Under the pieces are notes generated by a model. That model was given only the letters and a program-made list of their open reading frames with translations. It had not been told where the DNA came from and did no database searches. Shown one piece after another: positions 3,222-58,573 of a stretch of DNA of 64,000 nucleotides. Both the position numbers and the translations under genes were made by a program. The stretch lies in contig JAGVFR010000026.1 of NCBI GenBank assembly GCA_020057555.1, positions 22,631-86,630 on the forward strand. Direction: 5' to 3'. This DNA comes from a bacterium (GTDB lineage Bacteria > Patescibacteriota > Patescibacteriia > UBA9934 > GWF2-40-263). Each line of letters begins with the position of its first letter. The stretch's first letter is position 1.

Positions 3222-4251
3222 TACAAGAACATATTACGCAATCGGGGCAATTGCCATCGCGATTGCGTTTTTGTTTGCGGCTTTGTTACCTGGGTTTTCA
3301 GGAAAAATTCGTCCTTTACTTACGTCTTCAGATGGCAGTTCTGACAAAGCGCCGGTTGGCCGTCATCCATTAACTGGTTTTCCTATTTATGAGCAAATGG
3401 AACTGCCACAGGTTTTTGGAGTCATGATAGATAATCATGTTGATGCTTGGCCACAAGCTGGAATTGATAGGGCATTTCTTGTGGTTGAGGCTCCTGTGGA
3501 AGCTGGAATTTCACGTTTTCTCGCGTTTTATTCAGATGATCAGGATGTGGATAAGATTGGTCCAGTTCGTTCAGCGCGTCCGTATTTTTTGGATTGGAAC
3601 AATGAACTGGATGGTTTATATGTTCATGTTGGAGGATCAGATTCAGTTCTTGATCAAATCTCCTCTGGCGGCACTTTTGATTTGAATCAGTATTGGTTTG
3701 ACTCCTATTTTTGGCGCGCGTTAAATCGTTATGCACCACATAACGTTTACACTTCTACAAAGTTGTTGAAGCGTTATGTTGGTTTTAAAGAACAAGCGGG
3801 AGTTGCGCTTAAACGATTGTATGATATCTGGAAATTTAAAGATGCTGATCTGTCTGGTGATGCAGAACTAAAAAATATTTCTGTTACGTTTGATGCGCCT
3901 TCTTATGTAACACAATGGATTTTTGATTTAGAAACACATCGGTATTTGCGTTCACAAAGCGGTTCTGTTCATTTGGTTGAAGACAAAACACAAATATCAT
4001 CTGACAACATTGTTGTAATTGTTACAGATGTTGAAATTTTGGATTCGGTTGGACGTCGGAGTATTCGAACAACAGGAGAAGGGAAGGTGTTCTTGTTTCG
4101 CGACGGAAAACAGTTTGAGGGGATTTGGAAAAAGGAATCGGAGAGTAACAGGCTTAAGTTTTACGATTCGAACGGTAATGAATTTGAATTGAATGCTGGA
4201 GTAACGTGGATTGAAGTGATTGCTGATGAATCGGATCTGGAAGTTGATTAA
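3196..4251 (+). CDS. DUF3048-domain (YerB-like) membrane-anchored protein
   Basis: Start chosen at ATG 3196 (in frame with ORF 3169, after rplY stop); N-terminal TM helix then DNHVDAWPQAGIDRAFLVVEAPVEAGISRFLAFY block resembling DUF3048. Confidence 0.55.
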   Translation: MKKLKLKFNTRTYYAIGAIAIAIAFLFAALLPGFSGKIRPLLTSSDGSSDKAPVGRHPLTGFPIYEQMELPQVFGVMIDNHVDAWPQAGIDRAFLVVEAPVEAGISRFLAFYSDDQDVDKIGPVRSARPYFLDWNNELDGLYVHVGGSDSVLDQISSGGTFDLNQYWFDSYFWRALNRYAPHNVYTSTKLLKRYVGFKEQAGVALKRLYDIWKFKDADLSGDAELKNISVTFDAPSYVTQWIFDLETHRYLRSQSGSVHLVEDKTQISSDNIVVIVTDVEILDSVGRRSIRTTGEGKVFLFRDGKQFEGIWKKESESNRLKFYDSNGNEFELNAGVTWIEVIADESDLEVD

Positions 4252-6452: not shown

Positions 6453-6525
6453 AGAGCGGTTGTGCTATGTCTCCGTGCCAGCGGACTCCTCGCCGCTGTT
6501 CACTTCGACATAGCACAACCGCTCT
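6453..6525 (-). repeat. conserved-core hairpin element, copy 1 (core on minus strand); terminator position downstream of prfA
   Basis: 19-bp perfect stem AGAGCGGTTGTGCTATGTC/GACATAGCACAACCGCTCT around a core that is the reverse complement of GAACAGCGGCGAGGAGTCCGCTGGCACGGAGACATAG; on the prfA strand it is followed by a T-tract. Confidence 0.7.
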
Positions 6526-8089: not shown

Positions 8090-9181
8090 ATGACACAAAT
8101 TACAGAATTCAATTATCATCTTCCAAGAGAGTTAATCGCACAATGCTCTGTCCAGCCTCGCGACCAATCACGGCTCATGGTTTTGGATAAACAAACAGGG
8201 AAGTTGAACCACAAGAAATTTTTTGAGATTGTTGATGAGTTGAAAACAGGTGATGTACTTGTATTTAATGATACAAAAGTTTTTAGAGCCCGGCTCAAGA
8301 CGCAAAATGGAATTGAGATATTTTTGTTGCGTGCGCGGGAAGACGATATTTGGGAAGTTTTGGCGCGTCCGGGAAAGAAGTTGCAGGTTGGACAAACACT
8401 TTGTATTGAACATGAAACAGAAAAACTTTGTGGAGAAGTGATGTCAAAACAATCAGACGGAACTGTTTTGATAAAATTTGATCGCGTACCAAATGACGTA
8501 ATCGCGTTTGCAAATATATACGGAGAGATTCCTATTCCTCCTTATGTGAAAAATATACCGGAGCGATTGGAAGATTATCAAACGATCTATGCAAAAGAGA
8601 CAGGTTCTGTTGCGGCGCCAACAGCCGGTTTTCACTTCACAGAAGATCTTATGGAAGAATTAAAATCAAAAGGCGTGCAATTCGAATTTGTAACACTTCA
8701 CGTTGGAATTGGAACTTTTCGTCCAATGAAAACAGAAACGATCGAGGAACATGAAATGCACAGCGAGTTTGTTTCTGTCTCAAAAGAGACAGCAGATCGG
8801 ATCAATCAAGCAAAAAAAGATGAGCGACGCGTGATCGCTGTTGGAACGACAACAGTTCGTACACTTGAAGGAGTCGCAAATTATCCCCTGAGCGAAGGTC
8901 AATTAGGCCTTCGACAGGCTCAGGCAATAATTGACCGAAGTCGAATGGGTAATTTTTATCTTCCAGATGGTTTTACAGGCGACGTTAATCTATTTATCAA
9001 ACCAGGCTTTGATTTCAAAATAATTGATGGGCTTATAACGAATTTTCATTTACCAAAATCAACATTACTGGTTTTGGTTTCGGCTTTTGCTGGAAGAGAA
9101 AATGTTTTGCGCGCGTATGAAGAAGCAGTTGCGCAACAGTATCGTTTTTTTTCCTTTGGCGACGCGATGTTTATTGCTTGA
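8090..9181 (+). CDS. queA: S-adenosylmethionine:tRNA ribosyltransferase-isomerase
   Basis: N-terminal FNYHLPRELIAQ and overall QueA layout; carries an in-frame insertion of the 25-nt dispersed repeat at 8908-8932. Confidence 0.9.
   Translation: MTQITEFNYHLPRELIAQCSVQPRDQSRLMVLDKQTGKLNHKKFFEIVDELKTGDVLVFNDTKVFRARLKTQNGIEIFLLRAREDDIWEVLARPGKKLQVGQTLCIEHETEKLCGEVMSKQSDGTVLIKFDRVPNDVIAFANIYGEIPIPPYVKNIPERLEDYQTIYAKETGSVAAPTAGFHFTEDLMEELKSKGVQFEFVTLHVGIGTFRPMKTETIEEHEMHSEFVSVSKETADRINQAKKDERRVIAVGTTTVRTLEGVANYPLSEGQLGLRQAQAIIDRSRMGNFYLPDGFTGDVNLFIKPGFDFKIIDGLITNFHLPKSTLLVLVSAFAGRENVLRAYEEAVAQQYRFFSFGDAMFIA
8908..8932 (+). repeat. dispersed 25-nt repeat CCTTCGACAGGCTCAGGCAATAATT (copy inside queA coding sequence)
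   Basis: Exact 25-mer also at 57313-57337; near-identical copies at 34817-34841 and 20178-20196; flanked here by the 9-bp inverted repeat GGTCAATTA/TAATTGACC. Confidence 0.8.
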
Positions 9182-30178: not shown

Positions 30179-31334
30179 TATGTCAAAGAAACACTGGCTG
30201 ATTATTTTATCGCTCGTGTTTTTGATTGGAATCATTATCATTCTGAAGCCGTCCTTTTGGACGGATGAAGAATCTCGCGGGATCCTTCGTTTAACTCAAG
30301 ATGACAAAGGAGGACAGAGGACGACAGAGAATGAGGTGGTCGCACACATTCCTCTTCCAGACGAAGTTCGTGGATTATATTGGACAGCTTCAACTGCCGG
30401 TTCTGAACGATCTGACGAGTTGCTTTCATATATGAATGATCATGGACTCAATGCAGTTGTGATTGATCTTAAGATGGATAATGGTCAAATTGCGTTTATT
30501 ACAAAAGATGAAGCATTGAGTGTTTATCAACAAACAGAATCAGCGATTGGTGATTTAGATGGTCTTCTCACGAAACTTTATGATAGTGGAATTTATAGGA
30601 TTGCTCGTATTGCTATTATGCGCGACAAAAAGTTTGGAGAAATACATCCTGAATTTGCGATGAAACAATCAAATGGCAATTTTTGGACAGATAAAATTGG
30701 TTCAGTTTGGGTTGATCCTGCCGCCCCAGAAGTCGCGCAATATGCGATTGCGCTTGCGCGTGAAGCTTATGCACGTGGGTTTGATGAAGTTCAATTTGAT
30801 TATGTTCGTTTTGCTTCAGATGGATCAATAAACTCGATCGTCTATCCTGTTTATAGTGGAGAAAAAAGTAAGGTTGAAGTAATGCAGAGTTTTTTCAAAA
30901 CAGTTGGAGAAACAATGCAGAAAGAAAAAATTCCTGTTTCGTTTGACGTTTTTGGTATGACTTTTTGGTCGTTTGATGATTTCAACATTGGCCAGCGACT
31001 TATTGATGTGTTGCCTTATGCTGACTTTGTTTCACCAATGGTTTATCCGTCTCATTATGTTGACGGGTTTGAAGGTTTTGCGAACCCGGCTGAATTTCCG
31101 TATGAGATAGTTAAGCGTTCGCTTAATGAAGGAACGAGAATAATTCACGGTTTTTACGCTGATTCAGATGTTGAACTTCGCGCGCATTGGAGGCCGTGGC
31201 TTCAGGATTTTGATATTGGCGCAGTGTATACATCTGATTTGGTTGAAGCGCAGATAAAAGCGACTCGCGATGCTGGCGCTTCTGGTTGGATACTTTGGAA
31301 CGCTCGCAATGTGTACGAACCCGCGGATTATTAA
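30165..31334 (+). CDS. putative TIM-barrel glycoside-hydrolase-like protein (GHL/DUF4015-like)
   Basis: N-terminal TM; LNAVVIDLK block resembling COG1306-type predicted glycosidases; weak. Confidence 0.45.
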   Translation: MKQNNMSKKHWLIILSLVFLIGIIIILKPSFWTDEESRGILRLTQDDKGGQRTTENEVVAHIPLPDEVRGLYWTASTAGSERSDELLSYMNDHGLNAVVIDLKMDNGQIAFITKDEALSVYQQTESAIGDLDGLLTKLYDSGIYRIARIAIMRDKKFGEIHPEFAMKQSNGNFWTDKIGSVWVDPAAPEVAQYAIALAREAYARGFDEVQFDYVRFASDGSINSIVYPVYSGEKSKVEVMQSFFKTVGETMQKEKIPVSFDVFGMTFWSFDDFNIGQRLIDVLPYADFVSPMVYPSHYVDGFEGFANPAEFPYEIVKRSLNEGTRIIHGFYADSDVELRAHWRPWLQDFDIGAVYTSDLVEAQIKATRDAGASGWILWNARNVYEPADY

Positions 31335-31335
31335 A

Positions 31336-31405
31336 GGAGCGTGGAGCTGTGTCGCAGGGAACAGCGGCGAAGAGTCCGCTGGCCCGGAGACATAGCTCCA
31401 CGCTC
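31336..31405 (+). repeat. conserved-core hairpin element, copy 2; terminator position after the GH-like gene
   Basis: Stem GAGCGTGGAGCTGTGTC/GACATAGCTCCACGCTC around core GCAGGGAACAGCGGCGAAGAGTCCGCTGGCCCGGA; followed by ATTTAATTTATTTTTT. Confidence 0.7.
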
Positions 31406-31423
31406 ATTTAATTTATTTTTTGT

Positions 31424-34854: not shown

Positions 34855-36252
34855 ATGCTTTCTCGAATTACTGAAAAAACTTTCTATCAATACATCAAAT
34901 GCCCGAATTGGGTTTACTTTGATGTGCATGCATTTGAAAAACGAGTTCGTGATCCTCTTATGGATCGCTTGATTGATGATGGGCTTCTTGATGAAAAACA
35001 GCGTGAGATCATTTCTGATCGCACTGACATGGTAGAAGTTACATCTGAAGATCCTGATGAAGCGTTTCGACAAACACTTGAGTTTATGCGCGAAGGTCGT
35101 CAAACGATTTTTCACTCTGTACTCATTGATAAAAATTTTGTTGGACATCCTGATGTGCTTGAAAAAGTTGAAGGGCGTTCGAAGCTTGGTGATTTTTATT
35201 ATGTTGCGGTTGATCTTAAACGTTCACGTTTTTTACGCGACGATCATAAATTTCAAGGATGTTTTTATGCTGAACTTCTTGAACGAATTCAAGATGTGAA
35301 GCCTGTTCAAGGTTACATCATCACACCTGACAAAATTGTTTTGCCATATTTGATTAGTGAGTTTGAAGGAGAATTCACTCTTACACTTTCAGAGATTGAA
35401 AAGATTATTGTTGGCACACAGCCAGTTCATTTTGTAACTTCAGGATGTAAACAATCACCATGGTTCAAAGAATGTCGTGGTGAATCCGAAACGTGCGATG
35501 ATTTGTCGTTATTGAATCGAGTTTGGCGTCAAGAAGTTGCTCGTTTGTTAAAAGCAGGAGTCAACACAATATCGGAACTTTCGCTAAAATCTTTGGTTGA
35601 TCTTGAGCGTTTGGCTCCTGATGTTAGTTCATCTCGGCTTGAGATTATGCGCGATCAAGCAATTGCGATAAAGGAGCATCGGCATATTTTTCGTGGAACG
35701 GTTGAACTTCCTGTTGCAAAGATCGAAGTTTTTTTTGATATTGAAAGTGATCCGCTTCGAGATTTTGATTATCTTTTTGGAGTGCTTGTAGTTGAAAATC
35801 GCAGTGAATCGTATCAATCGTTTTTTGCGGTAACTCCAGCGCAAGAAAAAGACGCGTGGGATGAGTTTGTCGCTTTTGTTGAAGGACATTTGGACGCGCC
35901 GATTTATCACTTTGGTCAGTTTGAAGTTGAAGTTGTTAATCGTTTTAGCGCGCGATATGGGATTTCTGCGATTGCGCGAGAAGCGCTTGAACGTAACATG
36001 ATTGATTTGCTTGAAGTGATTCGTCCTGCTGTAATTTTTCCTTTGTCATTTTATTCGCTCAAAGATATTGCCGCTTATTTGGGTTTTGAGTGGCGTGCTT
36101 CTGACGCATCTGGTGCGAATTCTGTTTTGTGGTTTGAAGAATGGTTGAAGAAAAAAAATCAAAAGTTGTTGCAAAAAATTCTTGAGTATAATGAAGATGA
36201 CGTGCGCGCAACTGCTCATGTAAAAAAATGGTTATGTGAAAATGCAATATGA
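34855..36252 (+). CDS. RecB-family (PD-(D/E)XK) nuclease with C-terminal RNase-H-like domain, TM0106-type
   Basis: N-terminal Cys-containing nuclease domain (YQYIKCPNWVYFD); C-terminal EVFFDIESDPL exonuclease-like motif. Confidence 0.6.
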   Translation: MLSRITEKTFYQYIKCPNWVYFDVHAFEKRVRDPLMDRLIDDGLLDEKQREIISDRTDMVEVTSEDPDEAFRQTLEFMREGRQTIFHSVLIDKNFVGHPDVLEKVEGRSKLGDFYYVAVDLKRSRFLRDDHKFQGCFYAELLERIQDVKPVQGYIITPDKIVLPYLISEFEGEFTLTLSEIEKIIVGTQPVHFVTSGCKQSPWFKECRGESETCDDLSLLNRVWRQEVARLLKAGVNTISELSLKSLVDLERLAPDVSSSRLEIMRDQAIAIKEHRHIFRGTVELPVAKIEVFFDIESDPLRDFDYLFGVLVVENRSESYQSFFAVTPAQEKDAWDEFVAFVEGHLDAPIYHFGQFEVEVVNRFSARYGISAIAREALERNMIDLLEVIRPAVIFPLSFYSLKDIAAYLGFEWRASDASGANSVLWFEEWLKKKNQKLLQKILEYNEDDVRATAHVKKWLCENAI

Positions 36253-37139
36253 AAACAAGTTGGTTTCGAAATTGTGCGGAGTTAATTATCTTGATCGCTA
36301 TCATTGCCACGGTTTACACACAACGCGTGGGGATTTCGCAGTGGTTTCGAGAAATGATGGAGCCGTCTGTGCCAGAGGCAGTGGAGTTTGAAAAAATAAC
36401 AGAGGAAAAGGAAGAAGGTAGTCGCGGGCTTCAGCCCGCGCAAGCGCCAGTCATCCCGAGTGCCGTCGATGGATCTGAAGAAAAAATATTGCCTGAACCT
36501 GTTGAAGGCAGTATAGATGATGTAGTTGTCACTTCGACAAGCTCAGTGGATAAAATTTTGCCTGTTGAAATCAATCTCGCTGTTCCTTTTACATCTCAAG
36601 CTCCGCACGCGAATTGGGATTTACCATATAAAGAAACATGCGAAGAAGCATCGCTCTATATGGTTGATGTTTATTATAAAGGAGTAAAAGCGGGGAAGAT
36701 TGCGGCTGATACTGCGGACGAGGAGATTAAAAAAATTATAGAATTTGAAAAAGAAATTTTTGGATATTATGAAGACACAACCGCAGAACAAGTTGGAATT
36801 CTTGCGGAAATGATGTATGGTCACGAAAAAATTGAACTGATCGAAAATCCAACTGTTGAACAAATTAAAAAACATGTTGCTGAAGGACATCCGGTTATTG
36901 TTCCTGCGGCAGGACGAGAACTTGGTAATCCGAATTTCACAGCGCCTGGTCCGATATATCACATGTTAGTGATTCGCGGATACACAAAAGATGGTAAATT
37001 CATCACAAATGATCCGGGCACAAAAAACGGCGAAGCATATGTTTACGATTTTGACACAGTTATGAACGCGATGCATGATTGGAACAATGGTGACGAGATC
37101 ACGGAAGGAAAAAAGGTAGTACTAATTGTTTATCCATAA
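36249..37139 (+). CDS. peptidase C39-like domain protein (YvpB-like), membrane-anchored
   Basis: N-terminal TM; FTSQAPHANWDLPYKETCEEAS Cys-containing block resembling C39-like domains. Confidence 0.45.
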   Translation: MKTSWFRNCAELIILIAIIATVYTQRVGISQWFREMMEPSVPEAVEFEKITEEKEEGSRGLQPAQAPVIPSAVDGSEEKILPEPVEGSIDDVVVTSTSSVDKILPVEINLAVPFTSQAPHANWDLPYKETCEEASLYMVDVYYKGVKAGKIAADTADEEIKKIIEFEKEIFGYYEDTTAEQVGILAEMMYGHEKIELIENPTVEQIKKHVAEGHPVIVPAAGRELGNPNFTAPGPIYHMLVIRGYTKDGKFITNDPGTKNGEAYVYDFDTVMNAMHDWNNGDEITEGKKVVLIVYP

Positions 37140-37667: not shown

Positions 37668-37840
37668 GTCGTTGCGAAGCCGAACCATGTCTCCGGGCCA
37701 ACGGACTTTTCGCCGTTTGTGTTGTCCGGTCTGGCTTTCAGACAGACATCGGCCAACCCGTTTCGGAGGTACGAAGCCAAGCAGTTGGCTTCTTTACTCC
37801 TCCTCTACTCCCTTCGACATGGTTCGAGCTTCGCAACGAC
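37668..37840 (-). repeat. conserved-core hairpin element, copy 3 (expanded, core on minus strand) filling the whole intergenic gap before xseA
   Basis: 24-bp stems GTCGTTGCGAAGCCGAACCATGTC / GACATGGTTCGAGCTTCGCAACGAC; core is the reverse complement of CACAAACGGCGAAAAGTCCGTTGGCCCGGAGACATG plus about 85 extra structured nt. Confidence 0.7.
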
Positions 37841-48144: not shown

Positions 48145-48233
48145 AATCACTTTCATAGGATGGTTGTTTTCTTGTGGCGTATTGCTTAACATACTCGATA
48201 GCGTGATCTATCCGCACTAACATAGTTAACCGA

Positions 48234-48308
48234 GGATCAGTTTGCATCATGTCGTAAGGAACAACGGCGAAGAGTCCGTTGGCCCGGAGATATGGTGCAA
48301 ACTGATCC
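48234..48308 (+). repeat. conserved-core hairpin element, copy 4
   Basis: Stem GGATCAGTTTGCATCAT / ATGGTGCAAACTGATCC around core GTCGTAAGGAACAACGGCGAAGAGTCCGTTGGCCCGGAGAT. Confidence 0.7.
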
Positions 48309-48314
48309 TAGATT

Positions 48315-55708: not shown

Positions 55709-55718
55709 GGAAAGAGCT

Positions 55719-55838
55719 ATAGCCATCACATTATAAAATGGGACTTTAGACGACTTACCTGTGGATGGGATGCGAAGGACAAGCAGACCGCCACAGGAAA
55801 GGATGGATAAATCCTATTTCATAATGTGATGGCTATAC
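55719..55838. repeat. 120-nt element bounded by perfect 17-bp terminal inverted repeats
   Basis: TATAGCCATCACATTAT ... ATAATGTGATGGCTATA; internal CCTGTGG...CCACAGG and GGAT..ATCC sub-hairpins. Confidence 0.6.
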
Positions 55839-56186
55839 AGTCTTGCGACCGCGCGGTCGTTGGACATTACATTATGATTCCGTACTTATAAAGATGAAAA
55901 ACAAGCAGGTTGCCATTTTTAATTTTTTATGGAGTATGGAACCATAATGTAATGTCCACATTCCTCTCACAGGTCTTCATTGCAAGCATGGAGCAATGGA
56001 AAACTGTGATTGGAGGGCGACGTTGGAAAGATATCCTTCGTCGCCCAAGAGTTTGCCTTCTCGGCTGGAGGCTCTGCTTCCTCTTGGCTCACCGTTTTAG
56101 GAAGGTGACTCCTTTTTGTCGCGTGTTTCAGATTGTAGTGGAATGTGTTAACTCACTTTGCCCTCCTAAATGTTTGGTTTTTTTGG

Positions 56187-57197
56187 CTACGAGAGCATGG
56201 CCTGGAGCTTGAGCTCGGCCATACGGATCACGCCAGGAACCGTCCAGTTCTTGATCGCACGGACGTCCGCGGCGGTCAGACCAGAGTTGCGAATTTTGAT
56301 AGCCGCGCGACCGAGTTGACGGTACTCGTCCTTGCTCACGCCCGGGACGATCTTGCCCTGAACGCGGCGTGGCGGACGAACCAGACCTAGACCGCATGCG
56401 AGCAAACTTCCGTCGCGCAGGGTTTCGACGTGCGAGCGAGTTTCGGCGATTCTTGCGTCAACGCGTTCTTCGGCCTCGCGCTGAAGCCGTGCTTCCTCGG
56501 TCGCTCTCTCGTCCGCGAACATATTCTCGATTGCCGCCATTGCCTCGGGCACGGTCTGCGATCCGAGCGGCAGAACGGTCTGTGCGCACTTGGGGCAGAA
56601 CGACTTCTGAAGGAGACCATGAACGGTCACCTCCTCGAGCCTCTTGACCCCGATAGCGCGCATGATTGTGCTGAACACGACCGCGACCCTTGCCTCGTTC
56701 ATCGGAACGAGTCGCAGACACTGTCCGAACTTTCCCTGACAGACCACGTGGTCCACGCCGTCCTTCGCAATGACGAGTCCCGGGGTGAACCTGACCTCGG
56801 GCTCGAGAACGGGCTCGGGCGCTGGAGCGGGTGCGGCGGGAGCCTTCTTGGTCTCGGCCTTGTGGACCTTGACCTTCGCCGGCTTCGGTGTCTCGACCTT
56901 CGGAGCCGGGGACGGGTTGGCCTCGGTCTTGGGCGAGACGATCTCCTTGGCCATGATTTCGACAGCCTCGATCGAGGAGCAATCCCTCCAGTTCTGGCCC
57001 GTGACCTCGATGATGTGCATGGCGCGACCGAGCTCGACGTGGGATGCGAGGAAGTTGATCGAGCCCTCGAAGTGACGCTCAACCACACGGCCGAGCTCTT
57101 CGAGTTCGCCAGGGAGACCGGGGCGGGAGTCGTCCTGCGGGATGATCTGAAGTCCGGGAGCCATCTGCGCGACCATGCGTAACCTCCAAAAAAGCAT
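56187..57197 (-). CDS. hypothetical protein on high-GC island (orphan, Pro/Ala/Lys-rich linker)
   Basis: Minus-frame codon positions sampled at 56761-56820: GC1 75%, GC2 40%, GC3 85%; GC switches to host-like at the stop codon; other overlapping ORFs are GC artefacts. Confidence 0.6.
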   Translation of the reverse strand: MLFWRLRMVAQMAPGLQIIPQDDSRPGLPGELEELGRVVERHFEGSINFLASHVELGRAMHIIEVTGQNWRDCSSIEAVEIMAKEIVSPKTEANPSPAPKVETPKPAKVKVHKAETKKAPAAPAPAPEPVLEPEVRFTPGLVIAKDGVDHVVCQGKFGQCLRLVPMNEARVAVVFSTIMRAIGVKRLEEVTVHGLLQKSFCPKCAQTVLPLGSQTVPEAMAAIENMFADERATEEARLQREAEERVDARIAETRSHVETLRDGSLLACGLGLVRPPRRVQGKIVPGVSKDEYRQLGRAAIKIRNSGLTAADVRAIKNWTVPGVIRMAELKLQAMLS

Positions 57198-57312
57198 GTG
57201 TCCTGGGTCCCGAACCTACACCACGTAGGAACGGATCAATTTATAGAACCTATCGGTCCTACGACCTTAGCAGTTTGGAAATTGTTATACCTTGAGCGAA
57301 GGAAAATTACTG

Positions 57313-57337
57313 CCTTCGACAGGCTCAGGCAATAATT
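57313..57337 (+). repeat. dispersed 25-nt repeat copy between the two high-GC genes
   Basis: Exact match to 8908-8932; flanked by AAATTACTG/CAATAATTT. Confidence 0.8.
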
Positions 57338-57463
57338 TGCCGGAGTCGGAGGGTTAGATTCAATTTCTAAACTATTAAGATCGTTCCGGGTGGCGTGTTC
57401 AGGGAAAGAAATCCCTTTACACACCACCCGGAAGATATAGAGCGGAGAGAGCGGAAAGAACTA

Positions 57464-58003
57464 CTAGCCGTTGGCGACCTTGCGGGCCTTGCCCTTGACG
57501 GTCACGATCGGCGTCTCGACGGCGGCGGGAGCCTCGGCGGGCGTGGAGACCGGAGCCGGTGTCACGGCGACCGCGGCCTTGAGCTCGGCCACAACCTGCG
57601 GGCCGACCTGCTCACCGATCGGGGTCGAGGCGAGAGCAGGCTTGGCGGGTGCGGAAGCGGCGGGCTTGGGCGTGAGCTTCGGCGCGGGCTTCTCGGACTT
57701 GGACTTCGGGAAGTAGGACATCGTGTTGACCATGTCCTTGAAGTCCAGGAGCGGTGCGAGGGCCGAGTTCTGCCCCATGCCGTGCTCGATGTTGTCGATG
57801 GCCTTCGTGAGAAGGGCCTTTCCGACGTCTTCGATGCAGCGCATGGTGTAGTACTCGGTGCCGACGTAGTCGTCGCGCTTCTCCGGGTCGAGGCCGAGCA
57901 CCTCGCACGCCTTCGCGAAGATCTTGTCGCGCAACTCCCTTTCGAAGATGCGTCCGTAGAGCGGGGAGGGATCGGTCGAGGGGGCCTGGAAGCTGGTCTT
58001 CAT
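57464..58003 (-). CDS. hypothetical protein on high-GC island (orphan, Pro/Ala/Lys-rich tail)
   Basis: GC3 20/20 in a sampled 60-nt stretch; N-terminal globular part then KPAPKLTPKPAASAPAKPALAST linker and a Lys-rich C-terminus. Confidence 0.6.
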   Translation of the reverse strand: MKTSFQAPSTDPSPLYGRIFERELRDKIFAKACEVLGLDPEKRDDYVGTEYYTMRCIEDVGKALLTKAIDNIEHGMGQNSALAPLLDFKDMVNTMSYFPKSKSEKPAPKLTPKPAASAPAKPALASTPIGEQVGPQVVAELKAAVAVTPAPVSTPAEAPAAVETPIVTVKGKARKVANG

Positions 58004-58573
58004 TGAAATTCTCCTTTTCGATGGCCTGCCTCCAGCCGAACCTGACCCCTGTGGTCAAATCCGCTTTCAGCTCGATGACGGCAAATGTTGTCACCATTGA
58101 GCTGAATCGGATTTTCCCAGAAATACGGAGGTAAAGTGTGACCCATTGACCTGCCCGAAGGCTGGTGTAGATCGTGAGTCTCTTGCGTATGAATTCAGTC
58201 AGCCTAGGCCGAATGAACACATTTGAGACTCTCTGCCAATGTCGTCTTGTAAGACTCGATTGGACAGCTTTACTCTCTCCTCCGTGTTTCTGGGTCGGTT
58301 TTTAACAAAAAACCGGTTGTCGTATATATCTGATCTTTTTGGCAAGAGTCAGACGTACACAACAACCGGTTCTTTTATTCAAAGAATGGCTATTGACTAC
58401 CTTTATACCGTGGGTAGTGCACGGACTCTCTCCCAAAAGTCCTATTTGTAAGAATCATCTTAACGGTCATACTATATCATATTCTGTCAAAACTGTCAAG
58501 ACCCGTATGTCGGTGAGGTTAGAATTTTAGCTAAAATTAGACAAAAGCTACTGTCAGGATTTTTTAGACTTAT

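What the first reader, a model, noticed from the sequence alone, without database searches (positions are those of the whole stretch)
6453..6525. Four-copy family of ~70-nt hairpins: conserved ~35-nt core inside copy-specific, fully compensated stems
Copies are at 6453-6525 (core on minus strand), 31336-31405, 37668-37840 (core on minus strand) and 48234-48308.
- Read in core orientation, the cores are ATGTC GAAGTGAACAGCGGCGAGGAGTCCGCTGGCACGGA GACAT, ATGTC GCAGGGAACAGCGGCGAAGAGTCCGCTGGCCCGGA GACAT, and near-identical versions in the other two.
- All cores are flanked by the conserved ATGTC...GACAT.
- The outer 17-24-bp stems are completely different in each copy yet perfectly complementary within each copy.
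- The core contains an inner mini-hairpin that also covaries (CAGCGG/CCGCTG in two copies, AACGG/CCGTT in the other two).
- Two copies sit exactly at terminator positions with a downstream T-tract, after prfA and after the GH-like gene.
- One copy fills the xseA upstream gap and one precedes a GT2 gene.
- The pattern of conserved interior and variable paired flanks is the opposite of a MITE.
- It fits either a structured RNA or protein-binding loop embedded in terminator-like hairpins, or a small element that inserts into loops of pre-existing hairpins.
Basis: seen in the sequence. Interest (0 to 1): 0.75.

Follow-up and report, generated by a model that had tools for sequence, protein, structure and literature searches.

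The report
Dispersed palindromic repeat of Uhrbacteria
The four hairpins are copies of a small selfish palindromic repeat that is scattered through the genomes of one group of ultra-small groundwater bacteria (Uhrbacteria), sits between genes and even in frame inside the tgt gene, and is a new example of a known kind of element rather than a terminator or a new regulatory RNA.

Summary
The four hairpins are real (3 short, 1 long form) and match no Rfam family. They belong to a family of more than 110 copies, found only in Candidatus Uhrbacteria genomes and groundwater metagenomes.

- **Unit:** the whole ~80-nt hairpin is the repeat. It has ~21-nt arms with a family consensus and a 34-35-nt core. 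The stems are not unrelated between copies.
- **Pairing:** 96.5% of cells pair, and 23 of 28 pairs show changes on both sides. G.U outnumbers A.C by 104 to 20, always on the core strand, whatever the direction of neighbouring genes.
- **Context:** polarity relative to genes is random. A T-tract follows only 10 of 97 copies. Copies are present or absent at the same sites in close relatives, and the same site can hold either polarity.
- **Variants:** optional modules of 90 nt and 40 nt occur.
- **Inside a gene:** the element lies in frame in a loop of tgt, in both polarities. That loop is predicted disordered.

No target-site duplication and no transposase were found.

Best reading: a non-autonomous mobile palindromic element like the Rickettsia palindromic elements, ERIC or REP. 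It probably moves as a single-stranded hairpin recognised through its core; this step is inferred. It is a new member of a known kind, of moderate interest.

The parts
6453..6525 (-). Copy 1, short form. On the minus strand the 5' arm is 6507-6525, the 35-nt core is 6472-6506 and the 3' arm is 6453-6471. The stem has 19 perfect pairs. It lies 12 nt after the prfA stop codon, sense to prfA, and is followed by TTTTTT.
31336..31405 (+). Copy 2, short form. The 5' arm is 31336-31353, the core 31354-31388 and the 3' arm 31389-31405. A-U pairing extends the hairpin to 31330-31412. It starts 1 nt after the stop codon of a DUF4015 glycosyl-hydrolase-like gene, between convergent genes. The same site holds the element in the opposite polarity in L016 and L092.
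37668..37840 (-). Copy 3, long form. The 5' arm is 37816-37840. GAAGGGA is 37809-37815. The 90-nt optional two-hairpin module is 37719-37808. The apical hairpin is 37700-37718 and the 3' arm is 37668-37691. It is antisense to both neighbours (a DUF2938 gene and xseA). Its outermost arm bases, GTCGTTGCGA...TCGCAACGAC, match the termini of another palindrome family.
48232..48309 (+). Copy 4, short form. The 5' arm is 48232-48253, the core 48254-48288 and the 3' arm 48289-48309. The stem has two G.U pairs. It lies between two GT2 glycosyltransferase genes and is sense to both. The orthologous site in L106 carries the same element with both the 90-nt and the 40-nt modules. L013 lacks it.
36246..36253 (.). 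Unoccupied site. Two genes overlap here (ATGA). In the relatives L002, L167 and L094 the element sits right after the stop codon of the first gene, together with other small repeats. Further unoccupied sites lie near 4250, 20555 and 55170.

Best explanation
The hairpins are copies of a non-autonomous, selfish, dispersed palindromic element. It is specific to Candidatus Uhrbacteria (CPR/Patescibacteria).

**Anatomy.** The mobile unit is the whole hairpin of about 80 nt. Going inward from the ~21-bp arms it has:
- a 3x3 internal loop (GNA/GGA);
- a 3-bp helix;
- a 3x2 loop (AAC/GG);
- a 5-6-bp helix with a bulged U;
- a GNRA-like apical loop, either C[GARGA]G or C[GAYA]G.

**Behaviour shown here.**
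- Copies are gained and lost at intergenic sites, mostly at gene 3' ends and rarely between divergent genes.
- They occur in either polarity.
- They tolerate optional internal modules.
- They can sit in frame in permissive protein loops such as the one in tgt, as Rickettsia palindromic elements do.

**Inferred.** The element propagates through a single-stranded intermediate of fixed polarity, either ssDNA or RNA. This intermediate must fold as a hairpin. The invariant core is the recognition module for an unidentified enzyme acting in trans. The arms need only pair, so they drift by compensated changes through G.U intermediates.

Any effect on host transcripts, such as termination at copies 1 and 2, is incidental.
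For: **Family and range**
- True copies occur only in Uhrbacteria MAGs and in groundwater metagenome contigs whose flanks match them or the window.
- None were found in viral contigs, phages or plasmids.

**Unit**
- Arm conservation ends 21 nt from the core.
- No arms occur without a core in 765 kb.

**Structure**
- 96.5% of cells pair, 23 of 28 pairs change on both sides, and 0 of 500 shuffles reach this.

**Single-strand polarity**
- Over 79 copies x 19 pairs there are 1362 Watson-Crick pairs, 104 G.U and 20 A.C (binomial p = 7e-15).
- The G.U to A.C ratio is 19:4 in sense copies, 19:1 in antisense copies and 7:0 in copies antisense inside a gene.

**Mobility**
- Sites are filled in some relatives and empty in others.
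- Remnants exist.
- Subfamilies with the same arms occur on many contigs of one sample.
- Opposite polarity occurs at the same site.

**Not a terminator or cis-regulator**
- Polarity is random and only 2 copies lie between divergent genes.
- A T-tract follows 10 of 97 copies.

**Inside a gene**
- The element is in frame in the tgt loop in at least four lineages.
- Among 120 Tgt homologues, 27 loops are empty (15-16 aa), 12 carry the element antisense, 6 carry it sense, 2 carry remnants, and others carry unrelated repeat-derived inserts.
- The long form is also in frame, in L164.
- In the AlphaFold model (mean pLDDT 87) the only segment below 50 is residues 178-199, which is the insert.
- The element has 3.7 stop-free frames out of 6, against 2.4 in shuffles.

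**Known parallels** are summarised in PMC10969869.
Against: - No mobilising enzyme was found. Neither a Y1/RAYT transposase nor any multi-copy transposase-like ORF appears in 676 kb around the copies. This is a weak negative, because the probes were recalled from memory and whole genomes were not searched.
- No target-site duplication of 4 bp or more was found, so transposition is not shown directly.
- Orthologous copies show compensated changes (window copy 2 versus L179), and pairing stays at about 97%. This could instead mean selection in place for a host function.
- Arm similarity does not predict core similarity, and the 90-nt module is almost invariant. Simple inheritance of whole units from master copies does not explain either point. 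Exchange between copies or very strong constraint must be added.
- The window shows no bias relative to the replication strand (n=4). An IS200/IS605-like ssDNA route might be expected to produce such a bias.
Confidence: 0.6

Rival explanations
1. A host-beneficial structured RNA module. Examples would be a docking site for an RNA-binding protein, an mRNA 3' stabiliser, or a bidirectional terminator. It would have spread through the genome and be kept in place by selection.
For: - Covariation is strong and the core is invariant across genomes of 39-60% G+C.
- The apical loop is GNRA-like and the internal loops resemble tandem G.A motifs, both typical of RNA.
- The optional domains always sit at the same two places, as in many RNA families.
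- Orthologues show compensated changes.
- Copies prefer gene 3' ends and avoid divergent promoter regions.
- Copies 1 and 2 have T-tracts.
Against: - The folding strand is antisense to the neighbouring genes in more than half of co-directional sites, and G.U pairs still follow the element.
- There is no conserved upstream promoter-like signal; information content falls to background 21 nt from the core.
- T-tracts follow only 10% of copies.
- Copies are present or absent, and polarity flips, at the same sites.
- The element lies in frame inside tgt in both polarities.
- There is no Rfam match.
Confidence: 0.15
2. Only the 35-nt core, with or without its modules, is the mobile cassette. It inserts into the apex of pre-existing palindromic hairpins, or is exchanged between them, and the stems are older residents.
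For: - Arms differ by about 41% and cores by about 13%, and the two distances are uncorrelated.
- The same arms carry class I or class II cores, and short or long forms.
- Both polarities occur at one site, as expected for insertion into a symmetric target.
- Copy 3 lies within the termini of another palindrome family. Those termini are present at the same site in L002 without the element.
- The tgt gene of L193 has ATGTC-A-GACAT without a core.
Against: - The arms share a family consensus with a defined end.
- No core-less shells were found in 765 kb.
- G.U pairs in the arms follow core polarity 104:20, which random-orientation insertion would not give.
- The L193 state is equally explained by deletion between two CATGTC direct repeats.
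Confidence: 0.12
3. A DNA-level site: a cruciform or a protein-binding palindrome. It would be comparable to the REP/BIME sites bound by IHF or gyrase, or to a replication or segregation signal.
For: - The location is extragenic and independent of polarity.
- The element is multi-copy and regularly scattered, with 4 copies in 64 kb.
- The parallel is with REP/BIME (my own knowledge).
Against: - Recognition of double-stranded DNA would not favour G.U over A.C on one strand.
- The core is not symmetric.
- Copies are dispensable at orthologous sites.
Confidence: 0.08
4. An intervening sequence that is removed from RNA. This would be a small intron-like or processed element whose long stem brings its ends together.
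For: - It lies inside tgt.
- The stem juxtaposes the two junctions.
- Patescibacteria carry many introns (PMC13011429).
Against: - Every tgt copy, including the long form, is in frame and free of stop codons. Splicing would not require this.
- Both polarities occur in tgt.
- Most copies are intergenic.
- There is no ribozyme match in Rfam.
Confidence: 0.03

Closest known systems
Rickettsia palindromic elements (RPE)
   Same: - Small palindromic repeats that fold as hairpins.
- Scattered between genes and also inserted in frame in unrelated housekeeping genes.
- The insert is translated as a tolerated surface peptide.
- No known transposase.
(PMC10969869; here.)
   Different: - RPEs are about 100-150 bp and belong to Rickettsia.
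- Nearly half of the RPEs of three families lie inside genes. Here only tgt is a secure case.
- I had no RPE sequence to compare.
- This element has a 35-nt invariant structured apex and G.U pairs tied to one strand.
ERIC (enterobacterial repetitive intergenic consensus)
   Same: - An imperfect palindrome whose central part is the most conserved.
- Short and long forms that differ by insertions at fixed internal sites.
- Mostly at gene 3' ends, in either orientation.
- RNA hairpins that can alter mRNA decay.
(Partly PMC10969869; partly my own knowledge.)
   Different: - ERIC is 127 bp and enterobacterial.
- There is no sequence relation.
- Here the arms vary far more than the core, and an in-frame intragenic site is used recurrently.
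REP / REPIN elements with RAYT transposases
   Same: - Extragenic hairpins recognised as single strands.
- No target-site duplication.
- Depleted between divergent genes.
- Some copies start with GTAG.
   Different: - REPs are 20-40 nt, and their stems rather than their loops are conserved.
- REPINs are doublets.
- A RAYT gene flanked by REPs defines the system, and none was seen.
- GTAG is not general here.
Classical MITEs (Correia/NEMIS; pneumococcal BOX, RUP, SPRITE)
   Same: - Non-autonomous, multi-copy and under 200 bp, with inverted-repeat ends.
- Elements cluster and insert into one another.
- Correia elements can invert in place.
(PMC10969869.)
   Different: - No target-site duplication of 4 bp or more.
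- No parent IS was found.
- The interior is more conserved than the ends.
Integron attC sites
   Same: Folded single-strand substrates in which structure is conserved, sequence varies, and strand choice is built into the fold.
   Different: - attC sites conserve the outer R''/R' boxes, lie in ordered cassette arrays in one orientation, and need IntI.
- Here the apex is conserved, the copies are scattered, and both orientations occur.

Membership tests
Any Rfam family (terminators, ribozymes, REP-like RNAs) | Match to a curated covariance model | tested here: not met
   - No match at gathering score in the whole window.
- Only weak generic-hairpin matches such as miRNA precursors, far below their gathering scores, around copy 1.
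- No match around copy 3.
Intrinsic terminator | A hairpin followed directly by a U-tract, in the sense of the upstream gene | tested here: not met
   - A run of four or more T within 10 nt downstream occurs in 10 of 97 copies.
- Co-directional sites are 18 sense and 23 antisense.
- The median stem is 21 bp plus a 35-nt structured interior, which is atypical.
- Copies 1 and 2 individually look like terminators.
Classical MITE | Terminal inverted repeats | tested here: met
   The ~21-nt arms are inverted repeats.
Classical MITE | Target-site duplication flanking each copy | tested here: not met
   Flanking direct repeats of 4 bp or more are no more frequent than in shuffled left/right pairings. 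Duplications of 2-3 bp could not be assessed.
Classical MITE | A parent IS with the same ends, or a transposase acting in trans | tested here: inconclusive
   No transposase-like multi-copy ORF family appears in 676 kb around the copies. Whole genomes were not searchable.
REP/REPIN-RAYT | A RAYT (Y1 HUH transposase) gene flanked by the repeats | tested here: inconclusive
   phmmer with IS200 TnpA and E. coli RAYT probes, recalled from memory, found nothing among 1291 ORFs. This is a weak negative.
REP/REPIN-RAYT | A conserved 5' GTAG next to a short imperfect palindrome, with conserved stems | tested here: not met
   The outer arm consensus is A-A/G-G-A/G-G-C..., and only a minority of copies start with GTAG. 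The arms are the least conserved part.
Rickettsia palindromic elements (as a functional class) | A palindromic repeat inserted in frame in housekeeping genes and tolerated as a surface peptide | tested here: met
   - The tgt loop carries the element in frame, in both polarities and in short and long forms.
- The insert is the only low-confidence segment of the Tgt model.
Rickettsia palindromic elements (as a homologous family) | Sequence similarity to RPE-1 to RPE-10 | not tested
   No RPE sequences were available in the tools. The host range (Uhrbacteria against Rickettsia) makes homology unlikely.
Integron attC | Conserved outer R''/R' boxes (RYYYAAC...GTTRRRY), cassette arrays and one orientation | tested here: not met
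   The outer arm consensus differs. Copies are scattered and occur in both polarities.

The most novel reading that the evidence does not exclude
The element may be the substrate of a mobilisation system not yet described. In this reading a hairpin of fixed polarity, ssDNA or RNA, is recognised through its 35-nt GNRA-capped, G.A-rich core and is inserted without target duplication. Interiors (core classes and the 90-nt and 40-nt modules) would be exchanged between copies by a homing-like process. Alternatively, the core strand is a trans-acting or protein-bound structured RNA family peculiar to Uhrbacteria.
Probability: 0.15. Interest if true: 0.75.

Novelty: new member of a known kind. Interest (0 to 1): 0.45.

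Why it matters
- CPR/Patescibacteria genomes are about 1 Mb and are thought to be streamlined. These Uhrbacteria nevertheless carry dozens of copies of a structured selfish repeat. Their intergenic regions are mosaics of several repeat families, and these repeats remodel a housekeeping enzyme (Tgt) in frame.
- The family offers a clean natural experiment on compensatory evolution. There are more than 100 copies, the arms are 41% diverged yet 97% paired, and G.U intermediates occur on one strand only.
- It is also a handle for finding the unknown enzyme that moves such elements.
- For annotation, these hairpins should not be called terminators or riboswitch-like RNAs, and the repeat-derived peptides in Tgt should not be read as domains.

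Tried and rejected
- **Rfam** at gathering and at E-value thresholds gave nothing relevant. There are no tRNA or tmRNA genes in the window.
- **By-eye comparison** with hammerhead, twister, pistol and hairpin ribozymes, K-turn/K-loop, boxB, group II intron domain 5, the SRP RNA and the sarcin-ricin loop gave no convincing fit. Only the GNR(N)A-type apical loop resembles lambda boxB, and that rests on memory.
- **Terminator reading** was rejected on T-tract frequency and polarity.
- **Mutation bias coupled to transcription** as the cause of the G.U excess was rejected, because the excess is the same in sense and antisense copies.
- **Replication-strand bias** was not seen: GC skew is positive throughout the window while the copies are -, +, -, +.
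- **Target-site duplication** was not detected.
- **Associated transposase** was not found.
- **Viral contigs, phage records and plasmid records** gave no match.
- **Literature** on CPR structured RNAs or Uhrbacteria hairpins described nothing like this element.
- **Core-less shells** do not exist in the sampled DNA.
- **The 90-nt and 40-nt modules as independent elements** was rejected, because they are never found away from the core.
- **Other apparent intragenic copies** (upstream of SecA, MurA, PepA, ParA, a subtilisin-like protease and xseA) are open-frame artefacts upstream of the true start codons.

Full report
**1. The observation.**
- In core orientation they read arm - ATGTC - 35-nt core - GACAT - arm.
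- Copy 3 carries an extra 90 nt inside the core.
- The pattern GGCGARGAGTCCG with up to 2 mismatches hits the four copies plus one chance site. About 0.96 matches are expected by chance, and no shuffle reaches 5.
- Each hairpin folds 8.6-10 standard deviations better than shuffles.
- The strand carrying the core as written is always the more stable one. Copies 2 and 4 have G.U pairs that would be A.C mismatches on the other strand.
- Rfam has nothing: there are no gathering-level matches in the window, and only generic-hairpin noise at permissive thresholds.

**2. The family.**
- A scan of one genome per species found true copies only in Candidatus Uhrbacteria MAGs: JACPHT01, JACQXU01, JACRJU01 and three further loci (L092, L094, L098) whose record titles were not shown. 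All other hits were chance matches in high-G+C genomes.
- A metagenome scan added about 80 contigs from a few groundwater samples.
- A covariance model built from 19 copies finds no further copy in the window. It finds 94 strong matches in the fetched loci. At least 16 further distinct long forms exist that the model cannot span.
- The window's flanking genes are 85-92% identical in DNA to these contigs, so the window is from an Uhrbacteria genome.
- Viral contigs, phage records and plasmid records hold nothing similar.

**3. Anatomy.**
- Conservation of the 5' arm runs for 21 nt outward from the core and then drops to background. The unit is therefore the whole hairpin of about 80 nt. Its arm consensus is near AAGAGCGGTTGTGCCATGTC. 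The stems are not unrelated sequences.
- Going inward from the arms there is a 3x3 loop (G-N-A opposite G-G-A). Next comes a 3-bp helix that toggles between GGG/CCC and GUG/CAC.
- Then follow a 3x2 loop (AAC opposite GG) and a 5-bp helix that toggles between AGCGG/CCGCU and AACGG/CCGUU.
- The apical loop comes in two classes. One is C-GARGA-G with a bulged U. The other is C-GAYA-G with a conserved G.A pair in the helix.
- On 94 copies, 96.5% of cells form standard pairs, against 77% in column shuffles and 31-48% in slid controls. 23 of 28 pairs show changes on both sides.
- In the outer stems of 79 indel-free copies there are 1362 Watson-Crick pairs, 104 G.U/U.G, 20 A.C/C.A and 15 other. Neutral transitions would give G.U and A.C equally, so pairing is selected on the core strand only (p = 7e-15).

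**4. Variants.**
- The long form has a 90-nt module of two hairpins in the 5' AAC loop. It occurs with many different arms and with both core classes, and is almost invariant.
- A 40-nt G+C-rich module can sit in the 3' GGA loop. One copy also has a 19-nt palindrome in the inner helix.
- Neither module is found away from the core.
- At the site of window copy 4, the window and L133 have the short form, L106 has the same arms with both modules, and L013 has no element.

**5. Context.**
- Among de-duplicated copies with callable neighbours there are 18 co-directional sense, 23 co-directional antisense, 15 convergent and 2 divergent sites.
- The G.U excess holds in sense (19:4) and antisense (19:1) copies alike. 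Host transcription therefore does not set the folding strand.
- Only 10 of 97 copies are followed by a T-tract.
- GC skew is positive across the whole window while the four copies are -, +, -, +.
- There is no excess of flanking direct repeats of 4 bp or more.

**6. Gain, loss and inversion.**
- At window 36250 two genes overlap (ATGA). L002, L167 and L094 have the element right after the first gene's stop codon, with other repeats beside it. L179 has what may be a remnant of one arm (GGAGCGGTT) followed by other repeats.
- Other unoccupied window sites lie near 4250, 20555 and 55170.
- L069 lacks the copy present at L124:3585.
- The copy 3 site holds the long form in the window and in L167. 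It holds unrelated repeats in L002, L094 and L179.
- After the glycosyl-hydrolase-like gene, the window and L179 carry the core in one polarity and L016 and L092 in the other. The boundaries are the same.

**7. Inside a gene.**
- In L121, L163, L149 and L123/L144/L161 the element lies in frame inside tgt (queuine tRNA-ribosyltransferase). It is antisense and gives the peptide ...SPGHRTVAAVPSD....
- In L164 the long form is in frame at the same place, a 58-aa insert.
- I examined the loop between RWAKRCK and LFGIVQGG in the 120 best Tgt homologues:
  - 27 have the bare loop of 15-16 aa;
  - 12 carry the element antisense;
  - 6 carry it sense (...SEGTTATVRRPGD...);
  - 2 carry remnants;
  - 45 carry other inserts, several of which look derived from other repeats;
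  - 28 were not parsed by my pattern.
- Synonymous positions of the core are conserved between lineages whose flanks are only about 70% identical.
- The arms of these copies carry G.U pairs on the strand antisense to tgt. Their conservation is therefore at the nucleic-acid level and is not imposed by the tgt mRNA.
- An AlphaFold model of the L121 Tgt has mean pLDDT 87 and pTM 0.87. Its only segment below 50 is residues 178-199, the insert, which lies between a long helix and the next barrel strand.
- The element has more stop-free frames (3.7 of 6) than composition-matched shuffles (2.4).
- L193 has the left arm directly followed by A-GACAT. Deletion between two CATGTC repeats would give this.
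- L195 has a sense copy with four U.G pairs on the coding strand.

**8. Interpretation.**
These facts fit a selfish, non-autonomous palindromic element and do not fit a terminator or a cis-regulatory RNA.
- *Shown:* a defined unit, multiple copies, a lineage-restricted range, gain and loss, both polarities at one site, nesting with other repeats, in-frame residence in a permissive protein loop, and pairing selected on one strand independent of host transcription.
- *Inferred:* the constraint on one strand reflects the form in which the element is copied or moved. That form would be a folded single strand, ssDNA or RNA. The invariant core would be what the mobilising factor recognises, and the arms would be free to drift as long as they pair.
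- *Not explained:*
  - no enzyme was found;
  - arm similarity does not predict core similarity;
  - the 90-nt module is nearly invariant.
- The last two points suggest exchange of interiors between copies, or very strong constraint.
- The idea that only the core moves into older hairpins is weakened by two results. There are no core-less shells, and G.U pairs in the arms follow core polarity.

**9. Comparison with known elements.**
- The nearest functional parallels are the Rickettsia palindromic elements, which insert in frame in housekeeping genes. Next is ERIC, with its conserved centre, long and short forms, and either orientation at 3' ends. REP/REPIN elements share single-strand hairpins and the lack of duplication.
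- Pneumococcal BOX, RUP and SPRITE elements and the Correia element show the same clustering, nesting and inversion (PMC10969869).
- Membership of the classical MITEs fails on target duplication. Membership of REP/RAYT fails on the conserved-stem and GTAG rule and lacks a RAYT gene. The attC and terminator definitions are not met.
- I found no description of this element in the literature searches.

**10. Verdict.**
This is a real and well-supported feature. It is a new family of a known kind of bacterial repeat, in a phylum where such elements have been little described. Its evolutionary signature is unusually clean, and it has a striking in-frame hot spot in tgt. Interest is moderate (0.45). 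It would be higher if the mobilising mechanism proves new.

Noticed in passing
window 56000-58400: A stretch of about 2.4 kb has G+C of 0.51, against about 0.40 elsewhere. Its ORFs overlap on both strands and none has a Pfam match. It has no Rfam match at gathering score. It could be a large unannotated structured RNA or a foreign segment.
   Followed up: partly
window 55718-55837 and 55861-55958: Two long A+T-rich inverted repeats lie just upstream of the G+C-rich stretch. Their arms are 29 nt and 26 nt and are 90-92% complementary. They are unrelated in sequence to the hairpin family.
   Followed up: no
window 58305-58377 and 57384-57433: These are two long terminator-like hairpins. The first has arms (AACCGGTTGT...) that faintly resemble the family's arms, but it has a 15-nt loop and no core. 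The covariance model scores it at 21 bits, E=0.012.
   Followed up: partly
L002:4480-4660, L031:3290-3330, L034, L015 (flanks of copies): A second dispersed repeat of the type ...GGGATC(C)...TCGCT(C)AGGATGACA / GTCATCCCGAGC... often lies next to the hairpin element. Intergenic regions of these genomes are mosaics of small repeats.
   Followed up: no
window 37668-37680 / 37828-37840; L121:4053-4136; L164:1292-1374; L110; L160; L002:3070-3225: A third family of palindromic termini, GTCATTGCGA...TCGCAATGAC, encloses different interiors. It encloses our element in several loci and another repeat at the copy 3 site of L002.
   Followed up: partly
L094:2120-2160 and 3455-3575; L179:1700-1800: Short tandem repeats (GGCTAAAGGCTAA... 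and AAAACCCAAAACC...) fill the same variable intergenic sites in some relatives. L094 also has a truncated second copy of the core (GTCTCCGGGCCAGAGGC) next to the full element.
   Followed up: no
Tgt homologues P0028, P0069, P0036, P0056, P0100, P0065, P0071, P0085 (loop between RWAKRCK and LFGIVQGG): The same Tgt loop carries 40-54-aa inserts that look like translations of other repeat families. Examples are ...SPRHCEE...IASVATLPRNDE... and ...PPSLGYGRASHH.... This loop is a general hot spot for in-frame repeat insertion in Uhrbacteria.
   Followed up: partly
L143:8632-8715(-) and 8825-8906(+); L145:465-542 and 557-638; L112:1193-1274 and 1280-1458: Some loci carry two copies within about 100 nt, as inverted or tandem pairs, sometimes with one copy truncated. 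These are clusters like those described for pneumococcal repeats.
   Followed up: no
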